A program made the position numbers and the translations under genes. 64,000 bases of DNA from NCBI GenBank assembly GCA_903813345.2, contig CAIIXF020000001.1, positions 18,352,001 through 18,416,000 on the forward strand. Direction: 5' to 3'. Under the pieces are notes generated by a model. It was not told where the DNA came from. It worked only from the letters and a program-made list of their open reading frames with translations, and did not search any database. Each line of letters starts with the position of its first letter. Position 1 is the stretch's first letter. This DNA is from Owenia fusiformis (lineage: Eukaryota). Shown here piece by piece: positions 18,501 to 63,909 of this stretch.

Positions 18501-21500
18501 ACACTGGATCGTTATTGTTATTCATTTACTTTAATGCTAAGAGTATAAATCCTAAATGGGATACATATCTACTGAACAAAGCATTTATCGTTACAAAAGT
18601 ATCATTTTACAATTTCTATGATATTGTTCGTTGTTTGCAAAAGCCAGGATATTGCAAAACAGTGTTCGGCTAAAAGTGGGTAATATTCATATGAAGTCGG
18701 CTATTATTCAGCCTATTATTCTATTATATGACTGGTTGGGCACGACACTGCCAATCGATAACTAAAATGTCATCTGATAAAACGAGAATGATGGATACTA
18801 AATTACTGTATCGAGTGATATAGTTTTTGTTGCAAGTTAGCATTTACGAAGTATCTCTAAATTCACGTTGAAAAGTGTGTTTTATTGTATTTAGTTACTA
18901 TTAGGATCCTCTGTCTTACAATTAGTTAAACAGTTTATATCAATCGTTCTTCAGTTAAAGTGATGTGTTTTTGAATTTGGCGCCAAGAAGATGTACGGTA
19001 ATTAACAACTCCATCTTTTGTTTGAAATCTTTAAAATTAGAGATATCTGTTTCTGGTTGGTTTAAATGAAATGGAAAGTCAAATTTTAGTACATTTTTAT
19101 GTCTAATAGCCACCGTAAAGGCCATACCCCTTATGGCAATCTGATAATGATACACTATGGGATCAGAGAACGTATCTAAGAATTAAAAAGGAAGTTTCAT
19201 TCTAGTCTGATGGCGTGAATGCCCGAGTTAATTTGGTAATGCAGTGGTGAGCTCTCAGTCTCAAATCAACCCTGTTCCCTAAGCTATTTAATCAAATTAC
19301 TAAGCACTGTCTAATTGGTACGGTATGTTTCTTCCTGAAAGTCTAATGAAAATAGAAGTTCGGATTGAAACTAATGACTTGGTAGATTTTGCGTGTTGCT
19401 TGTTTTGATGACGTGGGATTAGAAATACGTTAGTCGTCACGCAGGGTGAATAGATACATCCAATTGCCAAATTAACCAGTAGAGACCAATTCGAGCAAGA
19501 CCTAGAGATACATCTAAACCAACATTACACCATTCTCGTAACATCACGTTACCTTGTACGCCATTGTTCCAGACCTTGTAGTATATTTTTAGATTCGTTA
19601 TAAATACTAAATCATGTCACTTAACCCAGACCCCTATACACAACTGACATTGAAAAATAAAGTATAACATCCGGTGCATTCTGACATCGGTTCCTCGAAT
19701 AAATCAAACCCTTAAAATATATTGCCATTGTGTTTTCACTCGTGACATGACTTAGATGTATGTGTATATCACAAACATGTCAATCTATTGTCTGGATTAT
19801 GTATACATATAGGTACATATATAACAGTTGTTGACAATTGTCATCGGGTGATATATGTTATATTTATTTGCTGTTATCGTACGTGAAATGTTACGAAGTC
19901 ATCAAACATTTTATAAAGTTTGCTTTTTCTTTTGTATGTTTTGTATTGCACGAGTCATTAATGGGTCCCTTACACTGTAATTGCAGTATCATATAAATTT
20001 TTCTAAACTTAAAATGCAAGTCTAAGTGTTTATATCACATACACTCACCGTGGTGATATACCAAAATATCAACTGGTCACATGACTGGAGTATTGATGCA
20101 TGATAAATCAGCCAATGGAACATATTATATTCCTTTGTTGCAAGAGACATGATATTAATATCATGTTCATTCGCATTCTGTAATCAGAAACTGGTATCAA
20201 GAATTCAACGTTACGTGAAAAGTTTTAAAATAATTGTTATCAAATATAGTATATTCATGATGAGATTTAAATAGTTGAGACATTTGAACATGTTTCACGC
20301 ATATGATTTTTCATATATTTGAATGCCCATAATAATTTTGACAGTGATCACTTAAATGTTCAGATTATCAAATACTCATGAAATATAAAATACATTATTT
20401 TCACATTAGTTACAGAAAGAAACTTTTCCCATCAGTTAATTTGTTCCTTGCATTAGTTTTTTCACGATTGTTTGATGTCACAGCCTTTTTAATAGGCATG
20501 ATAAATCTAAATATAAAAGATTAATGTGTGTTGTTCATCCATGTCACTCATTGCCAAACAAGAGTCTATTGTTCTTGGTGTGAGACGATTGGGAGGTATT
20601 TTAAAGTCGACTGTATTTTGAACTTTTGAGCATTAAGTTTTAATCCTAAAAAATCATGACATTTTTCCAATCATTTAATGTACAAACGTAAATTATCATT
20701 GTCAAAGACAGTACTAACATTTTACTTGTGTCTGAGTTGTTGTTTTATTCTCTATTGATCAAATATTGTTCATTGATTTTATTATTGTCTCTTTGTTTTT
20801 CAAATGTTGCCCCTTGTGTTTAATATGAGTAAATAAATGAGCTATCCATGTGTAACACACAAGCATGATGCACTAACAATAGATTCAGGTGGTTTTTAAA
20901 GTCATTGAAAATAAACGTATTCATCATGTACCATCAATGAAACTGGATTAATCATGAGCTTTAATTATGCTCTAAAAGTACACCGAGGCATATACAAAAC
21001 ATGCAAAGTTACCGAGTTCCAAAGTAACCAAAGTTACCTAGTTTTATAGCAATCAAAACGCTGAATCGAAAATATAATTTCATAAATTATTGACATTTCA
21101 TATTGATGTTTTATTTGTATGATGTTAAATGTTGTAGATTAAAAATTGAACAAATGTAAGGATCTGTGTCAAGTCACATAAATAAAACTAAATAAATGAG
21201 TTTATTCACTTGAAACACAAGAACAAAAATATACATTCCCTAAAACAACAGAATGGAATTCAATGCAAAATAAGTCAAAACGATTAAATAACGATCTAAA
21301 TGTACTGAGCACGATGAAAAATCTTGAAAAGTTCGAAACTAGTTATACCGATATCGTTTTAGATTAAAAAGGATTAGATTTTCGATCTGTTACCAAACAC
21401 GTCTAATATTTGATACACATCTTATAGCTCTTTAACAATTGGATTTTGAAATATGATATTGCCATAAATCATATCATGTTTGATACATGCTATCAAGCCA

Positions 21501-23334
21501 TCTGGCTATAACGGTTCTGATCGCAAATAACAATAGCAAAAAACTAGACAAGTTAAACAATCTTGTTTATTCAATAATACATTGATTGATGTTAAAAAGG
21601 GAACACCAATTTTCTTATTAATTAGAGACAAAAGTACATCTGGGGTTGAATACTGTTGAAGATTCCCGTCGAGTTTTTTAAAGAACACTACAGCGACAAT
21701 GCTATTACAGGTCTGAATTTGTTATAGAAAAGTCATTAGAATTTTCATTAGATAAAACTCCCAAGGTACATTAGACATTCATCAAACTCCGTAGCGAAGA
21801 TTACAATCTCTGAATGCTATTCCTTATAGACCCACATCTGTGAATTCTAAACACCCATGACCCGCCGCAATCGAAACTCTGACCTTTGTGCAAAACAACT
21901 ACTGAATAGTGAAGGATTATGCCTGGATATATCACAACTCAAGTAGATAAAACAAGAGTTCATTTTGAATTGTGCATTTGTTATTATATTCATGGAATAA
22001 GTGGGAATCTCAAATGCTTTTCCTTTAAATCACCATTTTGAAACTAGAATGGAATGGCTCCGCCCACTTACGCAACTCATTGTAAAAGATGCCCAAAGGT
22101 CAAATGGCAACCATTTTGAATCTTAACATGATGTGAACTCTGACTAAAGGCCAGATGATTTAGTGCTATGTGAAACGAATATAACGCATCCAATAAAAAA
22201 TCCTTAGAATCCCAGCCACATTCAACACCTAAAATGATAATAAAAAGTAGTTGAATACCTTTAAAATGAAACGCGATCATGCCAACAGCTTCACTTTCAT
22301 AATCAAAACCAACATCAAACAACATAGTGGATATTAAGCACCAATACTTCCTGTGTGTAAACAAAAGTGGTTGTAAAAAGTGCACCGATTTTGGGGTAAG
22401 TGGGGTTTAGACTGCATACTCGTATGTTAACTCACATACCATCTTGAGAAAGCCAGAACAAATGATCTCATGGGTAAAGCAAAGTAGGTGACTCGGCAAA
22501 GCAGTCACCGCATCATTTGAAAGTTCACGCAGAGAGGAAGTTGTTTATTTTAACTGAGTATCTCCGCATATCAGGACATTCTAACCATCCACGAAGGTTC
22601 CTTTGACGTAAGTTTCTTTAAATATTTAGATTCAGACTTCAGATGCATCAGTTATAAATGGAGGGTTGTTTGTTGTTAGGAGGTTATTCTCTGGATGATG
22701 GACGCCTGAAAGATCGCTGGGTGAACTAGTTGTAGACGAGCTACACGTCTGTTTTATATTTACTGCAACGTCGCCTTCAATCACCAGTGAGAGGCATCGA
22801 CTTGATACCAAAGCAGTATCGTCATCAAAACCAGCTTTTTTATCTCTTTCAGAACTATGCTCGACATGCTCTGTTCCTGGTGGTCCAGTCTGTTCTTTAA
22901 TTTCAAACTATGTCCAACCCCCATGACAAGTTTATTCACGAGTAGATAGGTCATCAATCATATATGTGTGTAGTAATTTTAAAAATTAAAAGATAAGGTC
23001 GGCCTGACTGACTGTGACAATCAAGAAGATAAAAACGACGCAAATAAAATGAATCTTCGCCATGGATGGAATATGTTATTATCTTATATTTGCATTGATT
23101 GTTGGTGTTTGATTTTCCATTAAGAAGGAGGTGTCTGCAATCAGAAATCACTTCATTAGAAAATTACCAGGTATATTGGTATTTTATTAGCTTACAGGCT
23201 TGAAGTACCATTAGCCAAAGTCCTTTCAGAATGTGACAGGTTTGTATGGCTGATTACATCTAGAATCTTAGGAGTCTCCAACTATCACAAAATTCATCTT
23301 TTAGTAGAGATATCTAATTTCTGGCAAATAAATG

Positions 23335-23348
23335 GTTTCTATGGCAAC
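23335..23348. promoter_or_regulatory. RFX X-box motif
   Basis: GTTTCTATGGCAAC. Confidence 0.45.
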
Positions 23349-26300
23349 GATATTTCGACATTAATGCAAGAACGGTTTATATTAGTAAGATTATTCATGC
23401 ATTACCGAGCGCTCAAGTCTTTCTTGATAACAACAAACGTGCTATCTCAACGGAGTGAATTTAATGATGAAACGTCTTCTGGGAATCTTATTTTCGAACC
23501 TATTCAGAATTCTGAATTAATTCTTGAAGATTGTAAATCGCTAGGGTAGAGAAGACATTATCGCTCAGTATGATTTGAATCTTGAATTTGATCTTGAGTG
23601 AAGGCTGAATCCCACTCCCTGTGAGTCAACCGTATTGCTCAGCAACCGCATACACCCTGTGGGATATGCTTTATTTACCCTACCAATCATTTTTCTAATT
23701 ATCAAATTAAACCGTAATTGATCTGAATCAATGATAATGGTATTAAATATCAATAAATATAATAAGTTTTGATATATCATACCTCTCCATACCCGGTACC
23801 CGTTATATCAGTTGTCTGCACTCCATGTTAGAAATCTCGAGACTGAGGGAAGAATATTACATGAAGCATATAGGTATTATTATTTTCCATCAGCTTGGAA
23901 CAAAAGTTAGTGTACAAATTGAATTTTATTTATTGTTTGGGGATCACGTGGGGCCATTAAGTTTACATGTGAAAGAACCTGGTCTCATCAATAGTTTCCC
24001 GTTCCTTTAGATATCTGTCGGAGCTTTGTTGTTGTTCGAAGTTGGTATTGTCTGCTCTAAGTCGCGTTGCAAGATTAATCGCTAGAATTGTTCCACCTGA
24101 CCTGGAGCATTCACCAGTGTAGAATAGATGCCAAGGGTCAATGGAGATTTTAACATTCACATCTCCAGAACATAGTGGGAGATATTTTTGGACCATTGTT
24201 TCAACTTGATCGTAATTTACATTTAATAACTTCCCAATAATGTTGCTTGTTTTAAGAATATGTGTTTTATTATCAAATGAAGTAGTTTAGCCATCAAACT
24301 AATCTTATTTCGTTGTAGTACGTTTAGCCTTGGTTTATTACCTAAGGGGCCTATTAGAATCCATTATCGTCATTATTTTATGGGTTTACTAGCCCTTGGA
24401 TCTCATCCAACCATTATTTATAGGTCTAACTCGACCCAAACAGAGAACATATATCAAAGCAGCTATTATGACCAGGGGATTTCTAATATCTTTTGTTTTG
24501 ACTGAAACAAAAAAAATATGTGACATGGACAAAACCCCTCATTATTAATTAGCTGATTTAACAGTATGTCATCATTCTAGACATTGAGACAGATATTTTA
24601 ATAAAATTACATATCAATACCCAATTAATCATTTGCTTGTCGATCATATACGTTTTTAATAATACTCGCCCGGACTATACATCATATTTATCAACGTCTG
24701 AGTCTTTTCGTCATTGTATCTCCAATATGTTCTCACAATAATCACGAACGTTAGCATTATCAAACATTCTTGTCTTGCTCCATTATGGATTGCCTTTGTA
24801 TGGTGGGCTTTTTGGCTTGAATTTTTCCTGTTCATGATTTATATGATTGGATATAATATCATTTGTGAATATGATTGAAGCTAGTATCCGGATTATTTTG
24901 TTGTGTTCTTGTTCTATCGGTTAATATTGCTTGTTTTTGTAGTTGTTGCTGTTTTCTTTTTTTCAAATTTCTGCCCCTCATGCTCTCTTATTATGGAACC
25001 TCATACCTTTAATGTTTATTTCAGATTGATTGATGCCACAATATTGAGCATATAATATGTTTTGTTGATAAGGTATCGATGTTGCAAAAGCTCAAGCAAA
25101 CTCAAAACCTGGAACAACTCAAACTTGGTCAAACTTTAATCTATACATGTTTAACTCGTAACACATTGGATTATGGTCTGGGATAGTTGGGTTTGTTCAT
25201 CAATTAAACAAATATGAGAAAGGGTTACAAACTTCACCAAAGGATTTTATATATTTGCTCGATCATATATTAATGATGATGTCTAGTTCAGTGTGTTTTT
25301 CCTGAAATCAATAACGTATCAAAAATGCAAGAACACTTGGTATATCAAATGCGTTAGTTATTTCATTGTTTGTGATAGATAAACCTTTTCGTGTCTTCTA
25401 GTTTGTTTGCAGTGTGAAAAAGATTAATTATTGAGGTATGTAATAAACTAGCCATTCTCCCTTAAAATGGATGATTTCAAGACATTTGTCTATCTCGAAC
25501 ATGCATTTTATAATTTCTGGAAAGTGTATGATATTGTGTCGACTCCTGGTGAAAACAACATTGTGGTAAACTTAAACTTAAAGGCAACTTAAAAATAGTA
25601 TCAAAATTGGTACCATAATCGGAATTAATGAGAAACACTATATCAACATTTCTGGTATATAGTTCATAACTTTAGCTAGAAAAGTTCATCATTCCTTGCA
25701 ATATGTATAGTAGATAGAGAGATTGTACAAAACTAAATAAATGTTTAATGTGAAGGTTGAGTTTGGATTTGAAACAAATCTTGTTCAGATCAGAAAAGCC
25801 TACATCTGTTTCGAGCAATGCATCATAATCATTTCTCTTTAGAAAGGGTGGGAGTGACTACTTTGAGGGTGGGGGAGTGTTAAGACCATAGTATTGTGAC
25901 AAAGCAGAGACCTCAGCAATTAGACTAGCCATTTTGTGATCTCCCTAAAGGCAGGGCATCATACCGCCTGTCAGAATGTCTTTTCTTCTAGCCATTGTAG
26001 ATTAAAATGTATCGGTTAGCCACTTTATCATAATTATCGCACCTTGACTTTCTAATTACACATCCATTGTCCATTCGCTTGCCAATTGTCAAATCAACTA
26101 GAGCACTTATTATTAAGTTTTGCTGCTTCCTCAATGTAAAAGTTTACAAATGAAACCGTTACCATAAGAAAGGTAGAATTGTTTGATATCTGATCTGTAT
26201 AGATGCTAGTAGATCTAGGCAGGCAGTCGCCTCTTTATGAAAGTGAATAAGTAATGTTGATTAGCGTGGAAGAGACCTCTGTGATTCAGTGGGTGAACTA

Positions 26301-27550
26301 GACGACCAAGTGATTTATAGAACACGACAACTTCTCAAACTTGTTCTCGAGAAGCAGCAGAGGGCCAGCACGCAGGTAATTAGTCATTTTTTAACTTTCG
26401 TCTGTCTAAGCATTGTTAGTTGATGGGACTACATCCCCATTGCGCTTGTTAGCAAAGAGTTAGGAACTTTGAATAATTGACTATGAAACTGTCTAAAACG
26501 AATGACCATAAATTACCTGATTGAATTAATGGAGATGATAGTCTTAATTCATAAACTACTCTCAGAGTAACAATTAGAACTAACGAATGGATCCATTGAG
26601 GTTTACTATGACATGAAGTTAAGGAAAAGTTACAAACAGCTATTTTATCGTGTAAACTAGGAAAAACTAGTTCTTATCTCTAACAAGATTAACTAATCAC
26701 AAGTATAGTAAACTTTTCCAGTGACCTGTAGCCTAGTATGTTACTTGAAGGACCGTGTCTCTTTTATTGCCATTTATTTTCATTTAGGCTTTCATTTCTG
26801 ATTTGAAGGTCATTGAGACTAAGGAAGATGATTAATGAAATTCTTGGTCACTCAGGCTTCATTTTTCAGTTATACATTTCAAATCATTGAATCCCTTTTG
26901 CGACATGCAAAATTGCATTTTCAGGTAGAAGCAAAATTCAAATAAAGTATTAAATGCAAATGCTTGATATTTTAGACAAACGTTTTAAAAACAATTGTAA
27001 ATAATAATTGAATGAATGTAAATAGATGAATTCATTTGTGAGGTGAGATGATTTATAATATTTGAATTTAGACATGTACATGTACTTCATGTATCGATTA
27101 TTTCTAAAACAAAAGAATCAGATAGATATAAATATTTTATTCTTTTAGTTAACAGTTACAAAATCATTGACTCTGTAAATATTTTGCAAACGTGTTATAT
27201 GACAGCAATTTGATATCCCTCTTTGACGTTTGAAAGACATTCATAAAGAAACACAAAATCCTGGAGATTTTTGGTTCACTTATCTTTCTTCCTGTCAAAA
27301 CAGTGTGTATCCATGGTCATTCAATTAACACTAGTATCGGTAAATCCAAATGGATATAAATGAATGTTATAATCCATGGATCTGGAGTATTGAGAAAGTT
27401 CTAGTATGATCAGATGAAGGTTAGTCATTCCTCGTGGTTATCCGCAGTCTACAGCGGCCATTTTTGATCCACCCTCTTCATTCCTACGGTCTTTTTGATC
27501 TCAGATCAGCGAAATGTTATGTTGTTTTGTTGAATTAGAACAAGTCATCA

Positions 27551-27609
27551 TATACCTGTAGAACTGAGCTTCTGTTTACAACGATACACAAACCCGGATC
27601 TACAGGGTA
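27551..27609 (-). ncRNA. mir-993: Pre-miRNA of the miR-10 family, miR-993 (Mir-10-P4) type
   Basis: Minus-strand 5p arm UACCCUGUAGAUCCGGGUUUGUG (27609-27587) has the miR-10 seed and two differences from miR-10. A 12-nt loop follows. The 3p arm CAGAAGCUCAGUUCUACAGGUAUA (27574-27551) matches the miR-993-3p pattern GAAGCUC...UCUACAGGUA rather than miR-10-3p. The arms pair with 1 bulge, 3 mismatches and 2 GU pairs. It lies upstream of Hox3, where miR-993 sits in other Hox clusters. Confidence 0.9.
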
Positions 27610-30600
27610 AACTCTAATATGTTCGACAAACTGCCTGCGAAATTTCACCTTGCCGTCTGCTCATTCCCGCCATTAATGCTCTCTTCCGTCTGCTGACCTA
27701 GATTTCGGTAGAGACCTCTCCTTGAGATTTAATGCCTTTATGTTCTTCTAGATTCTTCTTCAACCGCTCATCTTCATGCTAAGCTCACCAAGTATAATTT
27801 TGATTAATACATTTTGCCGTTGTTGCTGTTTTTGACAGTTGCAGACCATGTTGGACGTTTTGAAGCAGACTGTTGCAGACCTCAATACAACCTCTATCCA
27901 GGGGCTATACATATGCATATAGCTCTGTACACCTTGAGTCCATAAATATTATTCACTACCCGATGTACATGATTCATTATCTCCAAATAAAAAAATCAAG
28001 GTTGAATTTTCATTGCAATAAAGATCTCAATTAATTAGGCTGTCATTTTTATTGCCGTTTAGGTGTGCGAATGTACTAACTTCTAATGTCACTGTGATAT
28101 GAAAATATGGTTCTCGAAGAGAATTTCACCGAAGATGATATTAACGAGCTCTAATGGCTCATTAGTGCTACACAATTGTACACACTGTTGTGAAAATACG
28201 AAAATAACTTATTAAATATGACTAAGGTCCATAAAAGAGCGCATGTTACAATTCATCCATCATTGATACTTTTCCCAATATAATTTGACATTAATTGAGA
28301 GCGAAATACATTTAATATGGCACGAGTAATCATCTAATATAGAGGTTTTTGTTACTTCTGTTTTAAATTCCATGGTTTTATGAAGAAATTATCAATTAAT
28401 ATAAAAATAGGAAATGAATTTTCCACAGTTAGGAAGCTTACAAAATATGATTTTGATATCAAATGATCACAACTAAAATTGTTTAACAGGTTTTTTCATT
28501 AGTTCTAATTCTGAAAGGTGTATTTGCAGATAGGATATACAAACACCAAGATAGATAACTTTAATAACTGCACTAAGAGCTGAATAAAATACGATATAAG
28601 GACAAGTACATATTGCATCTAGACTTAATTCCGAGATGATGTTGACTGATGCTGCATGAATGCAGGGCGATAGAGAGATGCTCTTAGAATTAATATGAGA
28701 AAAGAGAATATTCTTGATATCTGATTAAATGTTCCGTCAACAAAAGACCGCTAAGTAATGTTCTCAAATTCCGAGCAACCTTGACATAAAATCAATGAGA
28801 ATCCTAGAGCGATCGGAGCTCTTGTCTCGGTTGGACCGCTTATCTTTTCAGTCTCAGTAAGTTTGGCATATTTAGCGATCCCGATTGTCAATTGGCTGGT
28901 GATTTCAATTTCGCATGTCTCTCTCTATATCTTGCAACTAATCCCTGTCTTACGTTGCCACCCAAAGGAAGACTAGATAAATTACTTTAGACATAGCTAC
29001 TCTTCAATCGGATTATTATTAATTGAAAAGTTCAATTTCATCTTTGAATCGCTACAAGATAAGTGGCTTTGTAGCATGGAATTTTCATAACTTTCATTTC
29101 CTAATTCGAGACTAATGCCAACATTAATTGCATTCTTCGAAACAGTTATTGTAAAACCTGAAGAGGATTTGAACACGGATATCTAAATCCATATTACTGG
29201 TATTGTAGTGTTTCAAGTGTTTCTAAATTGTCATCGTTTTTATCATTATGATGTGAAATATCAGCATTAGAAAAAACATAGAAACACCCAATATCAACCC
29301 GCAAATGTAAGGTAAAGTCCAGCAGGTTGAAAAATGAGATGTTTTTGAAAAATATGGAAGGCTTATTATGTACCGTCTATAAGATAGGGCGGACGTTTCA
29401 AATGATACTGTCGCCGGCTTTTTAACTTTTAAAAGTCAGTCAATCAGGTTTCTAATCTTGTCAAAATCAAACTTTGTGTATATTGTACTGTAATGAAACT
29501 TTCTTTAATGTGGTGTTATTTACTGTTTATCAACCATAATATCTTGTTATAGTATTTCGCTTCCCTTGATGGTACCCATTGATCATCGTATATTCATTTT
29601 CAATATTGATACAAAATTGTGTCTTAACATAGACAGCTGTTCCCGTGATAATAATGTAAAAAATAACTCTATGATATTTAAATCTAGTATTACACTCCCG
29701 TCAAAAAGTGTATAATTTTCCAATATATATAAATGATTATGCTATCTGTATTTTTTCCCAATTGGCGATTACAATCTTAACTAAATTGACTTATTTGTCT
29801 CTAAATCTTTTGAAAAATAGCATTGAATTAAAAATGAATAAATTTGATTCGGCAAATATTGGATCATCCTTGATTCAAATGTGTTTCAATTTATTCCAAG
29901 TGCAGGGACAGTGATGCCCGATCACAAGGATGAGATTGCATACATTTAGTATTTTTACTCTGAATAGTCTGCTTCAGGACCCTGCTCCCCTTTATCTTCT
30001 TTAACAGCCTGTTGTAAATTAAATATTGGGGACCAGAGTCTTGGAGCAAGACTCTCCTCTGAAATATTCGGTCTATTTGATAACGTGTCGTCATTACTTC
30101 TGGCCATGAACGTCACAGAGTCAATATGTTTACAGGGCAGTGAAGAAGAATGGACCCCACATAAGTGTATGCATATTTGGAAAGGTGACATAAAGTTACT
30201 TTTCAGCGCAAAATATCAATAATGGTATTTTCTCAGACTTGTTTGAAACCTGTTTTGTACAAATTGATATTGTATTGAAATTAAATACTTTTTGGATCTG
30301 ATGTTTCAGGATTGCAAAATCAGTCATTTTGACTGTTTTCTGCAAAGTGGAACTTAGATTTGGTCCATATATTTCTGATCAGCCTGTAGTTACAATAATA
30401 TGTCATATTTTTTGTTTTGAAACGTATGTATGGACCACTCGCTAACTTTTGTTTTGAAAAAATCAGTTTATTTTTTGTGAAATAATTCTTGGCATCGTAA
30501 ATACAGCATTTTGAAGGCTTGAATAACAAAATCAGACGTATTCATTTTTATTTAGAATTTATTAAAATTTATATAGAGGCATTTAAAACTTATACATGTA

Positions 30601-31447
30601 TTTAAAGCGGTAGTGTGGACAGAATTATGATGAAAACTATTCCAAAGTGTTATCTTCTCTACAATAAATTAGAAAAAGATATATATAGAGTGTAAATTAT
30701 ATCGTTTTGTAACTTTTTGAGGTGAGTGTAATTATTTTAAAACTCATGAAGTCAATTACTTTCATACAGCAAAGTATATTCGACCAGGTTAATAAACTGT
30801 CTGATGAGGTTTAGTGTTCACAAACAGCACAATATTCAAGTTTGTACTGAATAAAATCCATTCTCTATGTGTAAAGTTTGCGTATTTATATTTTATACCA
30901 GTTTAGCCAGGAAAAATACACCCTGTTATCTTAATATTATTGTAGTATTGTGACAATAAGTCCGTATGTATATTGTAATTGTTATTTAATCTAAAAATCC
31001 AGAAACTAGATTCTGCGCGAAAGACTATTATGTTTCCGTATGTTAAATGTATTATATAAAGCTTATAGATTTCCTGTTAAAGACAGACTAAGAAATTCCC
31101 GTAATAATTTTAGAAATCGGAGCTTCTTTATCGGTTGATGCAGAGTAAGAATAGAGAATAACTCATACACAATACAAACTTCTCTTCAAAAATGATTAAT
31201 TGTGATGTAACATATTTTCAGTGATTTTAGATAATACAGGTATTCAGCAAACTACCTTAGATGTATCCCTTAATGCAAACGTGAAATAATGAGTCTCGGG
31301 GCTAAAGTTTAGAAGTTCTGTGTCTAAGTCTGCGACAGACTAAACAAACTATAGCCCTAATATAATTCTCCAAGTGTGATGTTTGTCACATCTTGGCAAA
31401 ACACATTTTAGCGTGACTACAGATGTCTTTTGATGTCCAATTCAACC

Positions 31448-31579
31448 TGATGGATGGTTTTCGGTACCCCCAGAAATATGACAGATGCATGGGTTCGCTG
31501 TCATGAAACTGATAGTGATGTTGAGCAGTCAAAACAAAAGGAAGTGAGATCAAACGCCCCGCTTACATAGAGTTGACAG
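31448..31579. promoter_or_regulatory. Candidate Hox/Pbx-Meis composite element
   Basis: TGATGGATGG at 31448; TGACAG at 31479 and 31574; CTGTCA at 31498. Confidence 0.4.
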
Positions 31580-32812
31580 TAGAAGTCATCTCCAAGATGA
31601 AGCTACCAAATTGTGTTTCCCACAGTTGGCTCATCTGCAATGTTTATGGGGTGCTTACGTAGATATCATCCCTAGCCTGGAAAGGGTTAGATTACCTCTA
31701 TGTGCAGTCAGTGTGCATCACCTCGTGTCTATCTCAGGCCCAATCATACTCGGATCGGAATCAAAGGCATATTTGTTGAAAGATTGTTCCTGAATATTTA
31801 TGCAAGGAAGTTTTGCGCAAGACATTGCATTTGTCTCAATGATTGAACCAATATTTTTGGCAGGAGAGTACAAATATTTATTTTTCCATATTGATATTGT
31901 TTTTGCTGCATGTTCAGGCCATGTATGTTTTAATTTAATAAAAAAAGTTTTAATTGTCTGAATGAGTTATTAGTATCGATACTTATGAATTTTATAGGTT
32001 TATATAGCTTTAATGTTGTCATTGCTACGTACAGCATCATATGGAGTACAAAGCACAAATGGCTTTTGCATGTTAGCGAATTGAAACATTTCCAAATCAT
32101 GTAATGGAGGGAAGACATTCTATAGAAACAAAGTCATTTTAGAGTAAGATTTATGTCTCTTAGAATCACATTTTATTTCACAATAACTCAAGCAGCATTT
32201 TGTCATTAGTCGACTGACATATTTATTTCTGGAGGAAAGGCATTAATTGAGACGTGTCGTATTTTGTAGAAGAGGCTATAACATACGAAGACAGATGATA
32301 TGTCTCTTCGTTTAGATCAGACATTTTAAAAGACATTCCTTTGATAAGTAATAAATATTATCTCGTTGACATTGAAGCGTCTTAAATTGTGAAGTTGCTC
32401 TGAAGTCGTGTAAATGTGAAAGAGATGTAGAGGCGGGATATGACATTGTTTGCGAGTGGATACGTCAGTAGGATTTAGAGGTCTCGAGGGATCTCAACTT
32501 CTTGTGCTTGAATTAGTTTCTTTGTGAAGACCTATACTTCATTTGCATGGCGTTACTTTACACAAAAACTAGCAATTAATATTTTATCATGCCCCTGTCA
32601 ATCATTCTGGTTTTAGGTGAAATCCCAGTCAGCCAGGCTGAAATTAAATCTATGTGTTTGTGAGAGTGAACATAAAGCGTTGTCTGTGGAGAACTTGATC
32701 TATTCTATGTATAAACATTTCCGGGAAAGTTCAACGGGTAGACAAGTCTGGGTAACTGAAGAACATACTACAGTACATTGATTAACAGTCGTACTATCTT
32801 TTTTGTTGCCAG

Positions 32813-33008
32813 GAGACAGTATACTCGAGTGGATATCAGGGGGGAACGCGACCCACCGAGCAAGACCTACGCCCCGGATCTACCATTTCAAACTGTGATA
32901 CCAACTGTTACCTGTATCTGTGTTCAGCTCAGCATCGATTCTACCCGCACCAGGATCTTCACTCTCAACTAAGGACTGTAGATTTCCGGTGGTGCTCTTC
33001 ACATATCG
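32813..33008 (+). other. Candidate non-coding (5'UTR) exon, possibly of Hox3
   Basis: Acceptor ctatcttttttgttgccAG (ends 32812) with TTAAC upstream and donor TCG|GTAAGT (33009). The 196 nt between are GC-richer than the flanks and contain no ATG. Confidence 0.55.
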
Positions 33009-35779
33009 GTAAGTTTTGATCCAAAATTTATTGCTTTGCGATAAACTTAATGAATTAAATCCATATGAATAGTTTCACATTTAACAGTGTTGTAAACTGA
33101 GTTGAACTGATGCGACTGCTATTCCGCACCTGTAGTTTGAAAATGCAGCTTTTCAAATTGTTTTTAAAAATAACGAATTTTCGTTGTTAAAATGTTTTGT
33201 TGACTTTTTCTCATTAATACTGTTTATCATTAAGGCTTTTATTTAATATTTGGGTGAGTGCTTATTCATAATAGAAATTGAGAATGGATGTTAGGAGTGA
33301 TAAATTACTTTAGAAAAAGCCGCCATATTTGTATATGATAAAAGTACAGTGGCGCACCTATAGGGTAGTTAGGATACCAAAATCATGTTAGTCTATGTTA
33401 TAGTTTGTCTTTGTGGTATAAACGAATGCTACTGTATGAAACAGATATTGATAGTATAAAATAATACATAGCAATCACTATAAATCGTAATTGAAATTAT
33501 TTTGATGTTGCCAATAAACGACAATAAATAAGTGTTTAGTTTTGTCACATAGGAAATAAATATATCCTCATGCGCGACACCCAGACGACTGACTTACAAT
33601 GTAGCTTAACCATATATCATCACTGATACCTATGTTCTATATCTTAATCTTTTCCGAAAGTTTAATGACTTTTTAATAACACTTGAAAATATCTTGGCTT
33701 TAAAGTAAGTTTAAGTAAGATTCTGCGTGTGAATATAAAAACGATCAATTTAACAACAGTAAGCCCCTTTGTGCCTTTGATATTAATCCAAATTCTTGAC
33801 AATTAAATGCTTTTATCCAGCATGGGTTTATCCCCATTGATCCTCTTTTTCATCTTGGAATCCGCTCGTGAAGATGCATGTAATGTTTTCCATCTGTGTT
33901 TGTTTTTTCTCCTCTTATAGCGGTTATGTTTTAATCTTTACGTTGTGAGGTTGGTTTGATTCAGTTACTAGATATAGAATGGCTTAGATAAGCACTAAAT
34001 GATGATTAATCATATTTATGTACTTATGTTTCTAACTCAAGTCATACTTTTCATATTTAGCACTGTATAAACGCACACCAATTAGGAGGATGAATTATGG
34101 TCATTTTATCCCAAAGTTCTCACATATTTCATTCAAATGGCCTCTACCGACAGGCGATGGCAGAAAAACTACTACGGCTCTGCCCTTTGACATTGTGTAA
34201 AGGGAAATATTTATTGCTCAATATAATGCTACTTATTTACAATTGTCCCGACGTTTGTAGAAATTAATGAGGTCACGTAGCACTTTTGGTGCTATAAATA
34301 TGGCTTGGTTTTGCTATGCTAACCCGATATGAAAACATTCTTTGAGGGATGGGTAGATTTAATATAATATAGATATAAATTGAGTCACTTATGATTATAT
34401 TGAGTGTAAAACTATAGGGAATAGCACGATATATTTTATTCTATCTTTCCTCTAATGCAATAAACTTGCGGTTATGCTTCATTCCCCGGTGACCAATCCA
34501 ATCAACCATGAGAGCTTTATTAATTTGGTATGTTCCCCGCAATATCGAGATGTATAAATCCAAATAATATCGCTATTGGAAATGAAAGATAACAAAGAAG
34601 CATTTGCATATCTGTCGGGAATGTTTTTCTATTGATCAGTTTGAATATTGTTTTGTGTTCAACTCAATTATTAGTTGCATCTCCGGTTTCAAATATAGTC
34701 TAGGAAACTCAACTTATTCAGCGTATCAAAGGTATCAGTGTTAATGATTTCTAGAGACAATATATTCCTAGTTCATATTGTACCGTGTCTTTGTTAGAAG
34801 CAGCTATTTAAAATCTCATTTCACTAAAACGTTGGTAATAACGAACATACGAGATCTATGTGATCAAGAACACTAAATCGTTGCTGATATGAATGCAGGA
34901 AGTGACTTTTTGAGTTTTAGGAAAAGCTTTTAGGAGTACTTAATTTTGAGGATTTGGATAATAATGGTTAAAATTGTGATATCTTTGCTTATTTTAATAT
35001 AATTGGCAGGAAAATTGATGGTATCTCTTGCTTGATTCCATGCAGTGATATTGTTTATTCACATGCATTAACAATGATTGTAATCATGCAACATGCCAAT
35101 CAACATCATATTAGTTGATATTTGTTTGTTTTCATGCAACTCTCCTGTTTCTGATCCTGGAGTATGGACATTGTACTTGTTCTCATGTGTTGTCATTGTT
35201 CGTTGTTGTTGTTGTCCTCGTGTATTGTTATTGTTTGCTGTGTTTTATGCCTCATTCTTGTTTATCCTCACCAGACGCATTGATCCTGAATATGAATTAT
35301 TGCCAATAACCCCTTGATCGTTTCACTCCTGCAATATAAAACATATTCATCAGTACATCTTGCAAGTATAGAATATCATATCAGTTCATGTTAAACAGAG
35401 CTACAAACTCACAAATGTTCCCTTTAAATGGAGAAGTATCAGAATCCTTATACTTTCAACAACTAATATGAGATATGGGTGATCTAGTTTGTTTTATTGT
35501 ACAAAGTGTATACTTTATCCTTTTGGCTAGGAAACGGTTGTTTTGCGGTGAACGAATTCGTCTTTCGTTACTAGGATTCGGGGTGATAAAAGCTTGCACC
35601 CGAGACCTTCTTACTTAAAATATATAAGAAGTATTTCTTGGTAACAAAAACACTACAGAACATGTATGTTTCAGATGAATCTCACAATACAGATTCAGGG
35701 TTATGTTTTTCTGCTATGCGGCCCTTGATCTGGACTTTTTACTGAGAAACAGTTTTCTGATATTTATCGTTGTGGCATC

Positions 35780-35988
35780 TGACAGCTGAAAGTTTGAGGC
35801 AAGGGTCTGACAAAATCAGTCAAGATATTCCCTCCTAAGCCTTGCAAGCTGTTCTACCGCGGAGTTTTCATGACAGTTACTCAACCCAAAGAATTTTAAT
35901 AAGAAATAACTTCATCTGTCAGACAATCTTTTGACTTTTTATCCATCAAATGATGCAACTCTTGCGGATACTTTCCAACAATTGACAG
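35780..35988. promoter_or_regulatory. Candidate Meis/Pbx-Hox site cluster
   Basis: TGACAG at 35780, 35871 and 35983; CTGTCA at 35916; ATCCATCA at 35941. Confidence 0.35.
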
Positions 35989-36353
35989 AGGTTGTGTCTA
36001 TACTGTCTGTTTTGTTTGACACATCCAGTTGTTTTTCTAGAAGGTTTCAACAGTAATTATCAAAAAATGGAAATCCGAAACATATGTGTGCAAATATAAG
36101 TGTATTGATAGCCATACTGATAAATATCACAAGTTTTAGATTGTAAATCTATACTGACCCCTCGCCGCTGTGCAAAACACCAAATATAGAACGCATTTAT
36201 ATTTCTGAAGACTCTCTGAAGATTATACACTCGTTAGGTGTTTGAGAAAATTAATGTTGATGTTTTCATTATAACCAACACCAGGTTAAATCATATAAAT
36301 TAAGTTAAATTGACTGAAAATAAAGTACATAAAAAGCGAGTGGTTTTGTGTGC

Positions 36354-36628
36354 CTATGTACAGACCATGAGATCATACACTCGTTTATTTTTATCAGTTT
36401 GGAAAATATACTTTTCGTTATTACCAAAGGTACAACTGAGAAATAATGAATGCTGGTATACCAAAAGCAAGTGTTTCGTGTAGCTATGTACAGACCATAA
36501 GATCATACATTCGTTTATTTTTATCATTGGAAGACACGTTTGGAAGATGTTGATGCTTTGCGTTATTACCAAAGAAAAGTTGAATTGAGTGAAACTGCGA
36601 AATAATGAATATAAAAAGCAAGCGTTTC
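36354..36628. repeat. Diverged tandem duplication (two copies, about 130 and 145 bp)
   Basis: Both copies (36354 and 36484) start ctatgtacagaccatRagatcatacaYtcgtttatttttatca. They share cgttattaccaaag, gaaataatgaat and aaaagcaagYgtttc in the same order. Confidence 0.85.
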
Positions 36629-37242
36629 TTTCTTGTGGCAAATCATACCCTGGTTAGTGGTTTCTCTTTTCAATAAGATTTGAAATACATTTTGATGGAT
36701 CCATTTAAAACAGTTACTTTTTTCTCAGCTGTAACAAATCATTTCAAAACATCATTCACTTTGATATATTTCAAATTAATGAAAAATGACTTTAGGTATT
36801 CAATAGCAATTGAAATAGTACACACAAAGGTGACTGCAAAAAATGAAAAGATTCTCAAATTATTTCGAAATATGTCAAACTATGCGCTAAAGAGGTTGAA
36901 GTCTACATATCATACCGCCAATCTATCTTCGTTACTTTTTGACTCATTTTGACTAAGAAAAATTATTTAGAAATTTACAATTGAAATTGAAATAGAACAG
37001 AAAAAGGTTTGGAGACATTTTGTTATTTCTGTTGTCTGAGGTTGACGGTGTGATTACTACCTGTGAATTAAAGGACGTCTATGTGACGTGTTAGCATTTG
37101 TAATTACTGCCCAAGTTATTATAGCTTGTATCTGATGCCCCGAGAGGACCAATCTAACTGTCAAACTACACACATGCAGTCTATAATCTCAAACAAATTG
37201 CTGGGTTCACCCCAGATGTGGTGGGAGAAGGTAACTACAAAA

Positions 37243-37256
37243 GTTTCCATAGCAAC
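37243..37256. promoter_or_regulatory. RFX X-box motif
   Basis: GTTTCCATAGCAAC. Confidence 0.45.
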
Positions 37257-55900: not shown

Positions 55901-57526
55901 TCGATATTTAACGCCTTTTCAAAAATGTAGTTGTAAAAACATTTTGTTTTTAAATTGCTAAATGGTAGAGACATCATTCATCGTGTTTAAAGTATAATAA
56001 AGCAATTTGATGATGTACTAACTGTATTTAAAACACTGGTCTCATCTAATTGTTTTTTACAATGTTAACGAGTCCTTTGCCCTTTATCAACATGTCTACG
56101 ACCTGGAACGCATTCCGTAGTACTACGAATGATTCAGATTTACCATGGCCTTGAAATGGGGCCATTAATCTTAAAACACTGACTTTTATGTAGAAATAAT
56201 TGCAATCCGTGGATATAAATATCTCGTTTATAGCAGAAGTGTAGGTCAATGAGCCAGCTGATCGCTTGCGTGGAGAGTAGTTGAAGGTATGAGGGTATCA
56301 AGACATAATTGAAACTTTATTGTTTGTTTTCTTTAAATGGATATTAAGGCATATTCTTCATCTCTAAAATATTTTACATTGTGCCCCATCATTCCCAATC
56401 ATCGTGCACCTTTTTAGACGTCATATTTTATCAAAGTATTTCAAGTATTTCATTTTAGGAAACTTAAATAATGCCTTCATGAGTTGGGTAGGTTGGTATG
56501 GAACATTTTGAGGGATACTCGTAATCATATATAATAACTCTCTCAGCGTTTATAAGAAAACACAAGGGCAATATTCGAAATTAAAAAAAAACATTAATAA
56601 AATGAACTAAATTAAATCTGCAAACTTATGAAGATATCAGCTTTCGAAAGCCCCCATCCTCATTCCACATTTCTCATCAAATTATATTAAAACATTATTT
56701 TGACTAGAAGTCAGAAACCAAAAGTTTTTAATATCTATTGCTGGAATTGTACACGTTCAAACTGACAGCATTGAAATTGAATTTCTGAATATACAAAAGT
56801 TGCCTATTTCATTTGGAGGAAAATATTAAAATCCTTATTAAGATATCATTTCCAGAGTCTAATTTGCGGTCTCATTGTCGTCAGAAGCGATGGCTTTGTG
56901 CAAGTAATAATCTTCCTGAAAGCTTTTTAGATGAATTAACCTGAATGTTCCGTAAACCACCGCATGAAAAGAGACTTCTGCGATGTCTCAAACGATGTTG
57001 CATCGCTAAATCCTGACAAATGTCACTAGTCAGAAAAAGTCATAGCTCATCCTTAGATTAGACAATTGAGAAGTAGAATTTAATTTAAGTCCATTATTAC
57101 TGAAAGAGCCTCTCGTCGACCATTGGCTTTGATATAAGGGATTTCATAGGAGCTGGCATTCTCGATAGCAAGACAAATGGGACACTAGTAACTCCTCTCC
57201 CGATGCTCTTTATTCTAAGTTTAAACAATTCATTTAAAATGGAGTAGAATAAATAACATATGGGAGAATGCTGAACAAGTAATTCCTCATGATACAGTGA
57301 TTTGTTTATGATATTAGGCAAAGGTAGAAACACATTATGCGCCCACCCATTGACACACACCATGACCCCCTTCCCTCACTTCTCATCCTTCTGAGAAAAT
57401 GACCAAGTTTCACACCATCCCCTTGTAAACTATGCTTCCATCCTCTATTGTTTAACTCCCACGATTTATTTAAGTGACCTTGATTAATAAAGGGTATCTT
57501 AATTGTTTTGTTTCTAGTACTCAGCA

Positions 57527-57590
57527 CCCCCCCCCCCCCCTCCCCTCCTACAACTCCCCCCCCCCACCAACACACACATACACACACTCA
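57527..57590. repeat. Poly-C tracts followed by an imperfect (CA)n
   Basis: C14 at 57527, C10 at 57556, then cacacacatacacacactca. Confidence 0.85.
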
Positions 57591-59736: not shown

Positions 59737-60130
59737 ATGTCAATGACGTGCCAGAATGAAGTCAGTTTCGACATGCGAGAAATGGGAAAAGCATACCAGT
59801 ACGACTCTTCCGCTGGACAGCAGTATCAGGGCTATTATCCGAATGCCTACTCCTACGAGTCAGCGCCTCAGTACCAAGCAACGAACGATAACTACAGATC
59901 GTCCTGTGTCATGCAAAATCCGATGGTGAATACAGTAGGACAGATTGACTATCAGAACTCTTATATACACCCTAGCTCGTGTATGCAGAACATGGGCCCT
60001 AATCCATACCATATGCCCGGGTCACCACTCCCCCCGAACTCTCCGATCTACACAAAGGCGCACCAAGAGGTGTATCCGTGGATGAAGGAATCGAGACAAA
60101 ACTCCAAACAAAGAATACAGGCAATATCTG
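59737..60130 (+). CDS. Hox3: Hox3 coding exon 1 (N-terminal region plus hexapeptide). The conserved start may be ATG 59782 (MGKAYQYDSS).
   Basis: ORF contains EVYPWMKESRQNSKQ, the Hox3-type hexapeptide context (YPWM at 60073-60084). MGKAYQYD resembles the chordate Hox3 start MQKATYYD. The exon ends at a strong donor TCTG|GTAAGT (phase 1). Confidence 0.93.
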
Positions 60131-63100: not shown

Positions 63101-63151
63101 AATGTTGTCATGATTTTGACTTTAACAAGGTTTTTTCTTTGTGTTTTCCAG
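60131..63151 (+). other. Hox3: Hox3 intron (3021 bp, phase 1) between hexapeptide and homeobox
   Basis: GTAAGT donor at 60131 and acceptor ttttttctttgtgttttccAG ending 63151. Joining G+AA gives Glu and keeps the frame (...[14 protein letters not shown]...). This is the usual Hox intron position. Confidence 0.92.
62419..62446. promoter_or_regulatory. Inverted pair of TCF/LEF consensus sites in the Hox3 intron
   Basis: TGCCTTTGAT-ctcataac-ATCAAAGGCA is a perfect 10-bp inverted repeat. Both halves match CCTTTGATS. Confidence 0.55.
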
Positions 63152-63909
63152 AATTCGAACAACCAACGAAGCGTGCTCGAACGGCCTACACCAGTGCCCA
63201 ACTTGTGGAGCTGGAGAAAGAATTCCACTTCAATCGTTACCTCTGTCGCCCCAGGCGGATAGAGATGGCAGCCATGCTAAACCTTAGCGAGCGACAAATC
63301 AAGATCTGGTTCCAAAACAGACGCATGAAATACAAGAAAGAGCAGAAACAAAAGTCGACAGGGGGCGCTGAAATGTCACCTGAATGCGACAGTGACAATG
63401 AGATGTCGCCACTGTCGTCACCTTCTGGTATGAATGATTGTAACGGAGGAGGACAGATTACCCAGTTACCCCCGTCTGACTCTAATTGCCAGGCATTGCC
63501 CCCTGGGAACATAAATCAGTCGTGTGTAATCCAAAGCAACAACTCAATGGGCAATCAACAGCAAGTCAGTATTGATATTGGCAACATGGGTAACGGTATG
63601 TCTTTACCGGTTGACATTGATCAAAACAGATCTCAAAATAACACTGGGGTTGGATTAGACCAGGGTCAGTCCCCACTTGGCCAGCCTGCGAGTGGTCCTA
63701 TGGGGCAGCCAAGTACTCCTGTGGGAGCCTCCTTGGGACAGTCATATAACAACTCCAGGGGTACTCAACCACTTAGTCATCCGCCAAAGCAGTCATCCAT
63801 GAATTCCTGCTCGGTTGCCCCTTCCACTTACAACACATCTCAGGTCTCGTATTCCCAGCAGCAACAACAGCAGCAGCAGGACTATAACACAAAGCTGACA
63901 CATCTATGA
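63152..63909 (+). CDS. Hox3: Hox3 coding exon 2 (homeodomain and long C-terminal tail)
   Basis: [60 protein letters not shown] is a diagnostic paralogy-group-3 homeodomain. The protein ends TKLTHL-stop (TGA 63907-63909), like chordate Hox3 PKLTHL. Confidence 0.97.
63166..63345 (+). other. Hox3: Homeobox (60 codons, PG3 class)
   Basis: [30 protein letters not shown] and [13 protein letters not shown] motifs in the translation. Confidence 0.97.
63856..63879 (+). repeat. CAG/CAA repeat encoding Q8 near the Hox3 C-terminus
   Basis: cagcagcaacaacagcagcagcag. Confidence 0.9.

What the first reader, a model, noticed from the sequence alone, without database searches (positions are those of the whole stretch)
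27536..27624. miR-993-type (miR-10 family) microRNA in the non-coding DNA upstream of Hox3, on the opposite strand
Seen: the minus strand gives UACCCUGUAGAUCCGGGUUUGUG, loop UAUCGUUGUAAA, then CAGAAGCUCAGUUCUACAGGUAUA. There is extra basal pairing (GAACA/UGUUC, UAUUA/UGAUG) and a UGUG motif at the 5p/loop junction. Established: miR-10 lies between Hox4 and Hox5, while its paralogue miR-993 lies between Hox3 and Hox4 and is best known from protostomes. Here the 3p arm is miR-993-like, but the 5p arm is intermediate: it has the GGG of miR-993 and the UUUGUG end of miR-10. Inference: the linked Hox3 looks deuterostome-like to me (MxKAxxYD start, AAMLNL, KLTHL end). If the host is a hemichordate or another deuterostome, this is a syntenic miR-993 orthologue bearing on a pre-bilaterian-split miR-10/miR-993 duplication. 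I cannot tell whether it is already catalogued.
Basis: partly seen in the sequence, partly recalled or inferred. Interest (0 to 1): 0.85.

Follow-up and report, generated by a model that had tools for sequence, protein, structure and literature searches.

The report
Annelid Hox-cluster microRNA mir-993 (Mir-10-P4)
This is a real microRNA hairpin of the miR-993 type lying upstream of Hox3, but the animal is the annelid worm Owenia fusiformis, where such a gene is expected and almost certainly already catalogued, so the finding is correct but ordinary.

Summary
The hairpin is real. The minus strand 27538-27624 folds at -30.1 kcal/mol (z -3.8, 0 of 200 shuffles as good). It is the only Rfam match in the 64 kb: mir-10, 30.9 bits, below the gathering score of 47.5. 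Its 3p arm matches published arthropod miR-993 at 19-20 of 23 bases. A model built only from arthropod-type miR-993 hairpins finds it at 46.1 bits.

The host is not a deuterostome. Both Hox3 exons are identical to a protein of Owenia fusiformis, an annelid and protostome.

miR-993, now called Mir-10-P4, has been reported inside lophotrochozoan and annelid Hox clusters since 2011-2012. Owenia's microRNAs were curated for MirGeneDB 3.0.

The "intermediate" 5p arm is not peculiar to this locus. The same form occurs in 19 distinct hairpins on metagenome contigs.

I could not show expression: three RNA-seq runs gave no reads over the locus and no small-RNA run was available. Hox4 lies outside the window.

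Verdict: observation confirmed, miR-993 identity supported, evolutionary significance not supported. Low interest.

The parts
27538..27624 (-). Whole predicted pri-miRNA stem: lower stem, miRNA duplex and loop
   Evidence: RNAfold MFE -30.1 kcal/mol, z -3.81. Model R1 matches 27531-27632(-) at 46.1 bits.
27587..27609 (-). 5p arm, UACCCUGUAGAUCCGGGUUUGUG (predicted passenger or co-product)
   Evidence: Sequence. Ends inferred from the structure with 2-nt overhangs. Matches the class B consensus at 22 of 23 and the class A consensus at 21 of 23.
27573..27586 (-). Terminal loop region (includes a weak 3-bp apical helix)
   Evidence: structure. The loop columns are the variable part of the alignment: 3 of 34 invariant.
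27551..27572 (-). 3p arm, GAAGCUCAGUUCUACAGGUAUA. Predicted dominant mature product by homology with miR-993; seed nt 2-7 is AAGCUC.
   Evidence: Matches printed mature miR-993 of Parhyale/Daphnia at 20 of 23 and of Bombyx-1 and Diabrotica at 19 of 23. 3p dominance in Mir-10-P4/miR-993 is stated.
59737..60129 (+). Hox3 exon 1 (131 aa, MSMTCQ...QAIS)
   Evidence: The ORF is identical by eye to the N-terminal part of P0123.
63151..63909 (+). Hox3 exon 2 with homeobox (252 aa plus stop)
   Evidence: 100% identity and 100% coverage to Owenia fusiformis protein P0123.

Best explanation
The locus is the Owenia fusiformis gene for Mir-10-P4, formerly called mir-993. This is the Hox-cluster paralogue of miR-10 that protostomes carry next to Hox3.

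Inferred mechanism, not shown here:
1. A primary transcript from the minus strand, antisense to Hox3, folds into the roughly 87-nt stem at 27538-27624.
2. Drosha/Pasha crops it one helical turn above the basal junction, giving a roughly 59-nt pre-miRNA (27609-27551).
3. Dicer cuts next to the loop.
4. The 3p strand (27572-27551, seed AAGCUC) is loaded into Argonaute as the main guide and represses mRNAs with matching sites. The 5p strand keeps the conserved 5' sequence of the miR-10 family and is the minor or co-product.

Shown here: the hairpin, its strand, its family and subfamily likeness, the conservation of both arms against variable loops and flanks, and the host species.

Inferred: processing sites, arm dominance, expression and targets.
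For: - Stable strand-specific hairpin: minus strand -30.1 kcal/mol, z -3.81; plus strand -19.2 kcal/mol, z -1.88.
- Full-length match to Rfam mir-10 over model positions 1-74, 30.9 bits on the minus strand against 16.1 on the plus strand. It is the only match at E <= 0.1 in the window.
- The 3p arm equals printed mature miR-993 at 20 of 23 (Parhyale/Daphnia) and 19 of 23 (Bombyx miR-993-1 and Diabrotica). Bases 1-7 are identical.
- A pattern scan of metagenome contigs found 51 loci and 28 distinct hairpins.
- The 9 class A hairpins include 3p arms that match printed arthropod miR-993 letter for letter (by eye, for example L011, and L006).
- The 19 class B hairpins share the window's 5p form and the same mismatch geometry.
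- Window against class B consensus: 22 of 23 (5p) and 20 of 22 (3p). Window against class A consensus: 21 of 23 and 19 of 22.
- Among columns not fixed by the pattern, 11 of 15 5p columns are invariant across all 29 sequences, against 3 of 34 loop columns and 1 of 41 flank columns.
- All 14 representatives I folded form one hairpin whose lower stem is built from unrelated sequence.
- Covariance model R1, built from class A alone, hits 27531-27632(-) at 46.1 bits, rough E 1e-11. The only other hit is the antisense of the same locus at 17.8 bits.
- Host is Owenia fusiformis, Annelida.
- Literature, passages read:
  - MIR-10-P4 is the former MIR-993 and lies between Hox3 and Dfd (PMC12220506; PMC4862073).
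  - miR-993 and extra copies lie in lophotrochozoan Hox complexes (PMC3049427; PMC3290615 figure legend).
  - Annelids have mir-993 / Mir-10-P4 with the 3p arm mature (PMC6160089; PMC12257675).
Against: - The Rfam mir-10 score is below the family's gathering score (30.9 against 47.5). The same is true of 8 of the 11 related hairpins tested: 3 of 6 class A pass and 0 of 5 class B pass.
- No evidence of expression was obtained. Three raw RNA-seq runs under the same species label, each sampled at about 6-12%, gave zero depth over 20001-38676, which includes the hairpin. No small-RNA library could be laid.
- Hox4 is not in the window, which holds one homeobox only. 'Between Hox3 and Hox4' is therefore inferred from orientation, not seen.
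- Base 8 of the 3p arm is A here, U in class B and G in class A, so the 7-mer seed is not strictly conserved.
- The metagenome hairpins were retrieved with a pattern taken from the window's own arms. Part of their likeness to the window, and of model R1's score, is by construction.
- The organisms behind class B are unidentified. No homeobox or convincing coding ORF lies on those contigs.
Confidence: 0.9

Rival explanations
1. It is one of the other lophotrochozoan- or annelid-specific Mir-10 paralogues in the Hox cluster (P5-P8; old names mir-10b, mir-10c, mir-1991), or a lineage-specific duplicate of mir-993, rather than the one-to-one Mir-10-P4 orthologue.
For: - Pleistoannelids primitively have five Mir-10-P1-derived paralogues in the Hox cluster.
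- Eisenia has three mir-993 genes plus mir-10b, mir-10c and mir-1991.
- Hox4 is not in the window, so position alone does not settle paralogy.
Against: - The 3p arm is the miR-993 sequence: 19-20 of 23 to printed arthropod matures, with bases 1-7 identical.
- The paper distinguishes P5 from P1 by a seed shift and P7/P8 by changes at nt 13-16 with the P1 seed kept. Use of the 3p arm as the mature product is stated only for P4.
- The window holds only one Mir-10-family hairpin.
Confidence: 0.06
2. It is the canonical miR-10 (Mir-10-P1), displaced next to Hox3 in a rearranged cluster.
For: - The best Rfam family is mir-10.
- The 5p arm ends in UUUGUG, as in the mir-10 consensus printed.
Against: - The score is below gathering (30.9 against 47.5).
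- The 3p arm (GAAGCUC...CUACAGGUAUA) departs from the mir-10 model's 3p consensus and fits miR-993.
- The miR-993-type model scores 46.1 bits.
- The UUUGUG end is shared by all 19 class B hairpins, which carry miR-993-type 3p arms.
Confidence: 0.02
3. It is a decayed or unexpressed copy: a hairpin that keeps family likeness but no longer makes a microRNA.
For: - Zero RNA-seq depth over the locus in three sampled runs.
- Base 8 of the 3p arm differs from both other classes.
Against: - Both arms differ from the related consensus sequences at only 1-3 positions.
- The duplex keeps the same mismatch geometry as class B.
- The fold is stable.
- Primary miRNA transcripts are short-lived and often missed by ordinary RNA-seq (established knowledge).
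Confidence: 0.02

Closest known systems
Mir-10-P4 (MirGeneDB name) = mir-993 (miRBase name), the protostome Hox-cluster paralogue of miR-10
   Same: - Hairpin of the MIR-10 family with the shared 5p start.
- The 3p arm carries the miR-993 sequence: 19-20 of 23 to printed arthropod matures.
- It lies next to Hox3.
- It is known in annelids, with the 3p arm as the mature product.
   Different: - Base 8 of the 3p arm is A, against G in the arthropod type.
- The 5p arm has ...GGGUUUGUG rather than the arthropod-type ...GGGCUUUUG.
- The window shares this 5p form, and the internal mismatch positions, with 19 metagenome hairpins of unidentified animals.
- It lies on the strand opposite to Hox3. I found no text saying whether this is usual for mir-993.
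Canonical miR-10 (Mir-10-P1; Rfam RF00104), between Hox4 and Hox5
   Same: - Same family and same hairpin architecture.
- 5p arm nearly identical to the model consensus.
- Hox-cluster location.
   Different: - Below the Rfam gathering score.
- Different 3p arm.
- Different intergenic position: upstream of Hox3.
- In P1 the 5p arm is ancestrally the mature one.
Other annelid or lophotrochozoan Mir-10 paralogues (Mir-10-P5 to P8; mir-10b, mir-10c, mir-1991)
   Same: Hox-cluster duplicates of Mir-10-P1 in annelids.
   Different: - The paper distinguishes P5 from P1 by a seed shift and P7/P8 by changes at nt 13-16 with the P1 seed kept, and names 3p-arm usage only for P4.
- This hairpin instead carries the miR-993 3p arm.
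- I could not see their sequences, which are only in figures and supplements.

Membership tests
MIR-10 family (miR-10/100/125/993) | Hairpin precursor whose 5p arm carries the conserved family 5' sequence, aligned over the full covariance model | tested here: met
   RF00104 model positions 1-74 align to 27545-27616(-) at E 1.2e-5 locally and 0.002 over the whole window. The 5p start is invariant in the 29 aligned hairpins, partly by construction.
Rfam RF00104 mir-10 | Bit score at or above the curated gathering score (47.5) | tested here: not met
   30.9 bits. Of 11 related hairpins tested, 3 of 6 class A and 0 of 5 class B reach it, so the model covers the miR-993 subfamily poorly.
Mir-10-P4 / mir-993 | 3p arm with the miR-993 mature sequence (GAAGCUC...CUACAGGUAU) | tested here: met
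   20 of 23 to the Parhyale/Daphnia mir-993. 19 of 23 to Bombyx miR-993-1 and Diabrotica mir-993. Bases 1-7 identical, base 8 differs. Compared by eye.
Mir-10-P4 / mir-993 | Match to a covariance model of miR-993-type hairpins | tested here: met
   Model R1, built from 9 class A hairpins with the window excluded, scores 46.1 bits at rough E 1e-11 over the full length. It is the only sense hit in 64 kb. Caveat: the training hairpins were found with a pattern taken from the window.
Mir-10-P4 / mir-993 | Genomic position between Hox3 and Hox4/Dfd | tested here: inconclusive
   The hairpin is about 32 kb upstream of the Hox3 start. There is no second homeobox in the window and no genome is held for it, so Hox4 on the far side is inferred.
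Mir-10-P4 / mir-993 | 3p arm is the dominant mature product | not testable with these tools
   No small-RNA run was available. Ordinary RNA-seq gave no reads. Dominance is stated for other species.
Bona fide microRNA gene (MirGeneDB-style criteria) | Reads from both arms with 2-nt offsets, and at least 16 bp of pairing in the duplex | tested here: inconclusive
   The predicted fold places 2-nt overhangs at both cuts for 5p 27609-27587 and 3p 27572-27551, and the duplex has 20 paired positions (my reading). Reads were not available.
   The Hox3 protein is identical to that of Owenia fusiformis. Lineage: Protostomia, Spiralia, Annelida.

The most novel reading that the evidence does not exclude
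In the form of Mir-10-P4 seen here and in the class B hairpins, the 5p arm is as tightly conserved as the 3p arm. Among 19 distinct class B hairpins, 15 of 15 unconstrained 5p columns are invariant.

From recall, not tested, this 5p arm keeps the same seed as canonical miR-10. The locus could then be a two-product gene. It would supply a miR-10-seed guide from a second promoter, oriented antisense to Hox3, alongside the miR-993 guide. That would differ from a simple arm-switched paralogue.
Probability: 0.25. Interest if true: 0.3.

Novelty: already known. Interest (0 to 1): 0.08.

Why it matters
It matters little beyond annotation. The locus marks the Hox3-proximal part of the Owenia Hox cluster, and it adds a palaeoannelid example of a microRNA that the literature already places in the protostome ancestor.

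It gives no evidence for a miR-993 origin before the protostome-deuterostome split, because the host is a protostome.

The one modestly useful by-product is the comparison set. It shows two conserved forms of the hairpin, an arthropod type and the type shared with this annelid. They differ at base 8 of the mature strand and in their internal mismatch geometry.

Tried and rejected
- **Whole genome.** None is held for this window. I could not look for Hox4, Hox5 or a separate canonical miR-10.
- **Earlier scan notes.** Nothing relevant by place, words or sequence.
- **Sequencing runs.**
  - No RNA holder was listed.
  - The six holders are unlabelled contig sets. The one I laid (X1) carries tagmentation-adapter loose ends, so I treat it as DNA.
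  - The three raw RNA-seq runs gave no depth over the hairpin.
  - No small-RNA run was offered.
- **First protein search.** It used the wrong length class and gave only distant Hox proteins. The second search gave the species.
- **Strand of mir-993 relative to Hox genes.** No text states it in the papers I could read. It is shown only in figures and supplements, which I could not see.
- **Two papers held no printed miR-993 sequence**, and neither did the Eisenia main text.
- **The 17-nt core of the window's 3p arm, and that of class B,** occur in no searchable main text. Supplements and databases were not searched.
- **Identity of class B organisms.** There is no homeobox on any of the 51 contigs and no convincing coding ORF on the 34 class B contigs. 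They remain unidentified.
- **Flank conservation.** Only the hairpin (window 27550-27612) matches the 51 loci, and nothing else does in 22001-33000.
- **RNAalifold on all 29 hairpins.** It gave 15 duplex pairs with no compensatory change, because the arms barely vary and the lower stems do not align in register. Structure support therefore comes from the single folds.
- **Seed sites.** Neither arm has a 7-mer site in the Hox3 exons or the 91 nt of 3' UTR inside the window. This says nothing about targets.
Full report
**1. Observation**

  - The 5p arm UACCCUGUAGAUCCGGGUUUGUG lies at 27609-27587.
  - A short loop follows.
  - The 3p arm GAAGCUCAGUUCUACAGGUAUA ends at 27551.
- Folding 27530-27630 on the minus strand gives a single hairpin of -30.1 kcal/mol. 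The z-score is -3.81 and 0 of 200 dinucleotide shuffles fold as well.
- The plus strand folds to only -19.2 kcal/mol, z -1.88, with 7 of 200 shuffles as good.
- The minus-strand helix contains several G-U pairs, which become C-A mismatches on the other strand.
- The outer helix GAACA/UGUUC (27624-27620 with 27542-27538) is in the predicted structure.
- No Rfam family reaches its gathering score anywhere in the window.
- In E-value mode, the only match at E <= 0.1 in 64 kb is mir-10 (RF00104) at 27545-27616(-). It scores 30.9 bits against a gathering score of 47.5, over the full model 1-74. The antisense scores 16.1 bits.
- The window holds only one such hairpin.

**2. Host and neighbouring gene**

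- One homeobox lies in the window, on the plus strand near 63.3 kb.
- Its exon 2 (63151-63909) is 100% identical, over 100% of its length, to a 383-aa protein recorded from Owenia fusiformis.
- The upstream ORF at 59737-60129 is the N-terminal 131 residues of the same protein.
- Other best hits are Hox3 proteins of annelids, brachiopods, phoronids, molluscs and arthropods.
- Owenia fusiformis is an annelid: Protostomia, Spiralia, Lophotrochozoa.
- The hairpin lies about 32 kb upstream of the Hox3 start codon, on the opposite strand.
- No genome is held for the window. Hox4, expected beyond the low-coordinate end, could not be seen.

**3. Which member of the miR-10 family**

- Three papers print mature miR-993 in their main text: Bombyx, Parhyale mapped on Daphnia and Diabrotica.
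- Read from G27572, the window's 3p arm matches the Parhyale/Daphnia sequence at 20 of 23 bases. It matches the Bombyx-1 and Diabrotica sequence at 19 of 23.
- Bases 1-7 are identical in all of them. Base 8 is A here and G there.
- The fold geometry agrees with that start. With 5p at 27609-27587 and 3p at 27572-27551, both ends of the duplex have 2-nt 3' overhangs (my reading).

**4. Comparative set**

- A pattern built from the two arms found 51 metagenome contigs. These collapse to 28 distinct hairpins with flanks. They fall into two classes.
- Class A has 9 distinct hairpins on 17 loci.
  - The 5p arm reads ...CCGGGCUUUUG.
  - Where I compared them by eye, the 3p arms are letter for letter the published arthropod miR-993. 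L011 matches, and L006 matches.
- Class B has 19 distinct hairpins on 34 loci.
  - The 5p arm reads ...CCGGGUUUGUG, the same form as the window.
  - The duplex has the same bracket pattern of mismatches as the window.
- The window matches the class B consensus at 22 of 23 (5p) and 20 of 22 (3p). It matches class A at 21 of 23 and 19 of 22.
- The "intermediate" 5p arm is therefore a shared, conserved form, not a peculiarity of this locus.
- Among columns not fixed by my pattern, across all 29 sequences:
  - 11 of 15 5p columns are invariant;
  - 3 of 7 3p columns are invariant;
  - 3 of 34 loop columns are invariant;
  - 1 of 41 flank columns is invariant.
- UGU at the 5p/loop junction is invariant in 29 of 29.
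- All 14 representatives I folded give one hairpin whose lower stem is made of unrelated sequence. Their z-scores run from -1.54 to -8.52, and 13 of 14 are at or below -3.29.
- Only the hairpin itself is similar between the window and these contigs.
- RNAalifold found no compensatory change in the duplex because the arms hardly vary.
- Caveat: the set was retrieved with the window's own arm motifs, so part of the likeness is by construction. The animals behind class B are unidentified.

**5. Model tests**

- I ran Rfam's mir-10 model on 11 of the 51 loci.
  - Class A hairpins score 36.8-60.5 bits, and 3 of 6 are at or above gathering.
  - Class B hairpins score 26.3-28.5 bits, and 0 of 5 are at or above gathering.
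- The window's 30.9 bits is therefore typical of its type. The failed Rfam threshold reflects the model, not the locus.
- I built covariance model R1 from class A alone, without the window.
- R1 finds 27531-27632(-) at 46.1 bits, rough E 1e-11. The only other hit in the window is the antisense of the same locus, at 17.8 bits.

**6. What is known (passages read unless stated)**

- MIR-10-P4 is the former MIR-993 and lies between Hox3 and Dfd (PMC12220506; PMC4862073; PMC9933525).
- Griffiths-Jones et al. 2011 (PMC3049427) make three relevant points:
  - Its 3' arm is dominant.
[quoted passage not shown] See also PMC3394115.
- Eisenia has three mir-993 genes (PMC6160089).
- The Platynereis genome paper describes Mir-10-P4 in annelids with the 3p arm as the mature product (PMC12257675).
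- MirGeneDB 3.0 added Owenia fusiformis as a curated species, from supplied samples (PMC11701709).
- I could not open the database or any supplement. That this exact locus is listed is therefore very likely but not verified.
- The core of its 3p arm is printed in no searchable main text.

**7. Expression**

- No RNA holder was listed for 24000-31000.
- Three raw RNA-seq runs under the same species label were sampled at about 6-12% each. They gave zero depth across 20001-38676.
- Run X1 carries tagmentation-adapter ends and is best read as DNA. It covers the hairpin's bin at depth 14.8. Among the 40 differences shown, none lies inside 27538-27624, but 60 more rows were not shown.
- No small-RNA library was available. 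Processing, arm dominance and expression therefore rest on homology.

**8. Mechanism and verdict**

- Most likely (0.9), this is the Owenia Mir-10-P4 (mir-993) gene. It would be transcribed from the strand opposite to Hox3 and cropped and diced in the canonical way, giving a 3p guide with seed AAGCUC and a conserved 5p co-product.
- Targets are unknown. Neither arm has a 7-mer site in the Hox3 exons or the 91 nt of 3' UTR inside the window.
- Rivals are:
  - another annelid Mir-10 paralogue or a duplicate of mir-993 (0.06);
  - a displaced canonical miR-10 (0.02);
  - a dead copy (0.02).
- The finding is a correct identification of an expected, previously described kind of gene, in a species whose microRNAs have already been curated.
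- It does not bear on a duplication before the protostome-deuterostome split.

Noticed in passing
window 59737-60129 and 63151-63909 (+): Complete two-exon Hox3 gene with an intron of about 3 kb. It is identical to the 383-aa Owenia fusiformis record P0123.
   Followed up: yes
L001-L051 (metagenome contigs): miR-993-type hairpins occur in two conserved forms. The arthropod type has 9 distinct hairpins on 17 loci. A second type has 19 distinct hairpins on 34 loci, with invariant arms and variable loops, and shares the window's 5p form and mismatch geometry. Base 8 of the 3p arm is G, U or A in class A, class B and the window respectively. The class B animals are unidentified.
   Followed up: partly
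window 20001-40000 (run X1): A DNA-type run of the same species shows about 100 single-base differences and about 21 small indels against the assembly over 20 kb of this intergenic region. None of the rows shown falls inside the hairpin, but 60 substitution rows and 9 indel rows were not shown.
   Followed up: no
window 38919-38964: A few RNA-seq reads (X8: 3, X9: 1) lie only partly on the window, with an opposite-strand joint at 38919/38941 and a shared loose end. This looks like a short inverted repeat or a repeat copy expressed from elsewhere.
   Followed up: no
window about 57300-57590: A low-complexity GT/G-rich tract on the minus-strand reading (translation VCVCVC...GGGG), with a local GC-skew dip of -0.139 in 56-58 kb. 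It lies about 2 kb upstream of the Hox3 start.
   Followed up: no
L006 3111-3185: A second, palindromic hairpin on one class A contig gives sub-threshold hits on both strands to unrelated Rfam miRNA families: mir-4433 at 33.2 bits against a gathering score of 77, and mir-4716. It is probably an inverted repeat.
   Followed up: no
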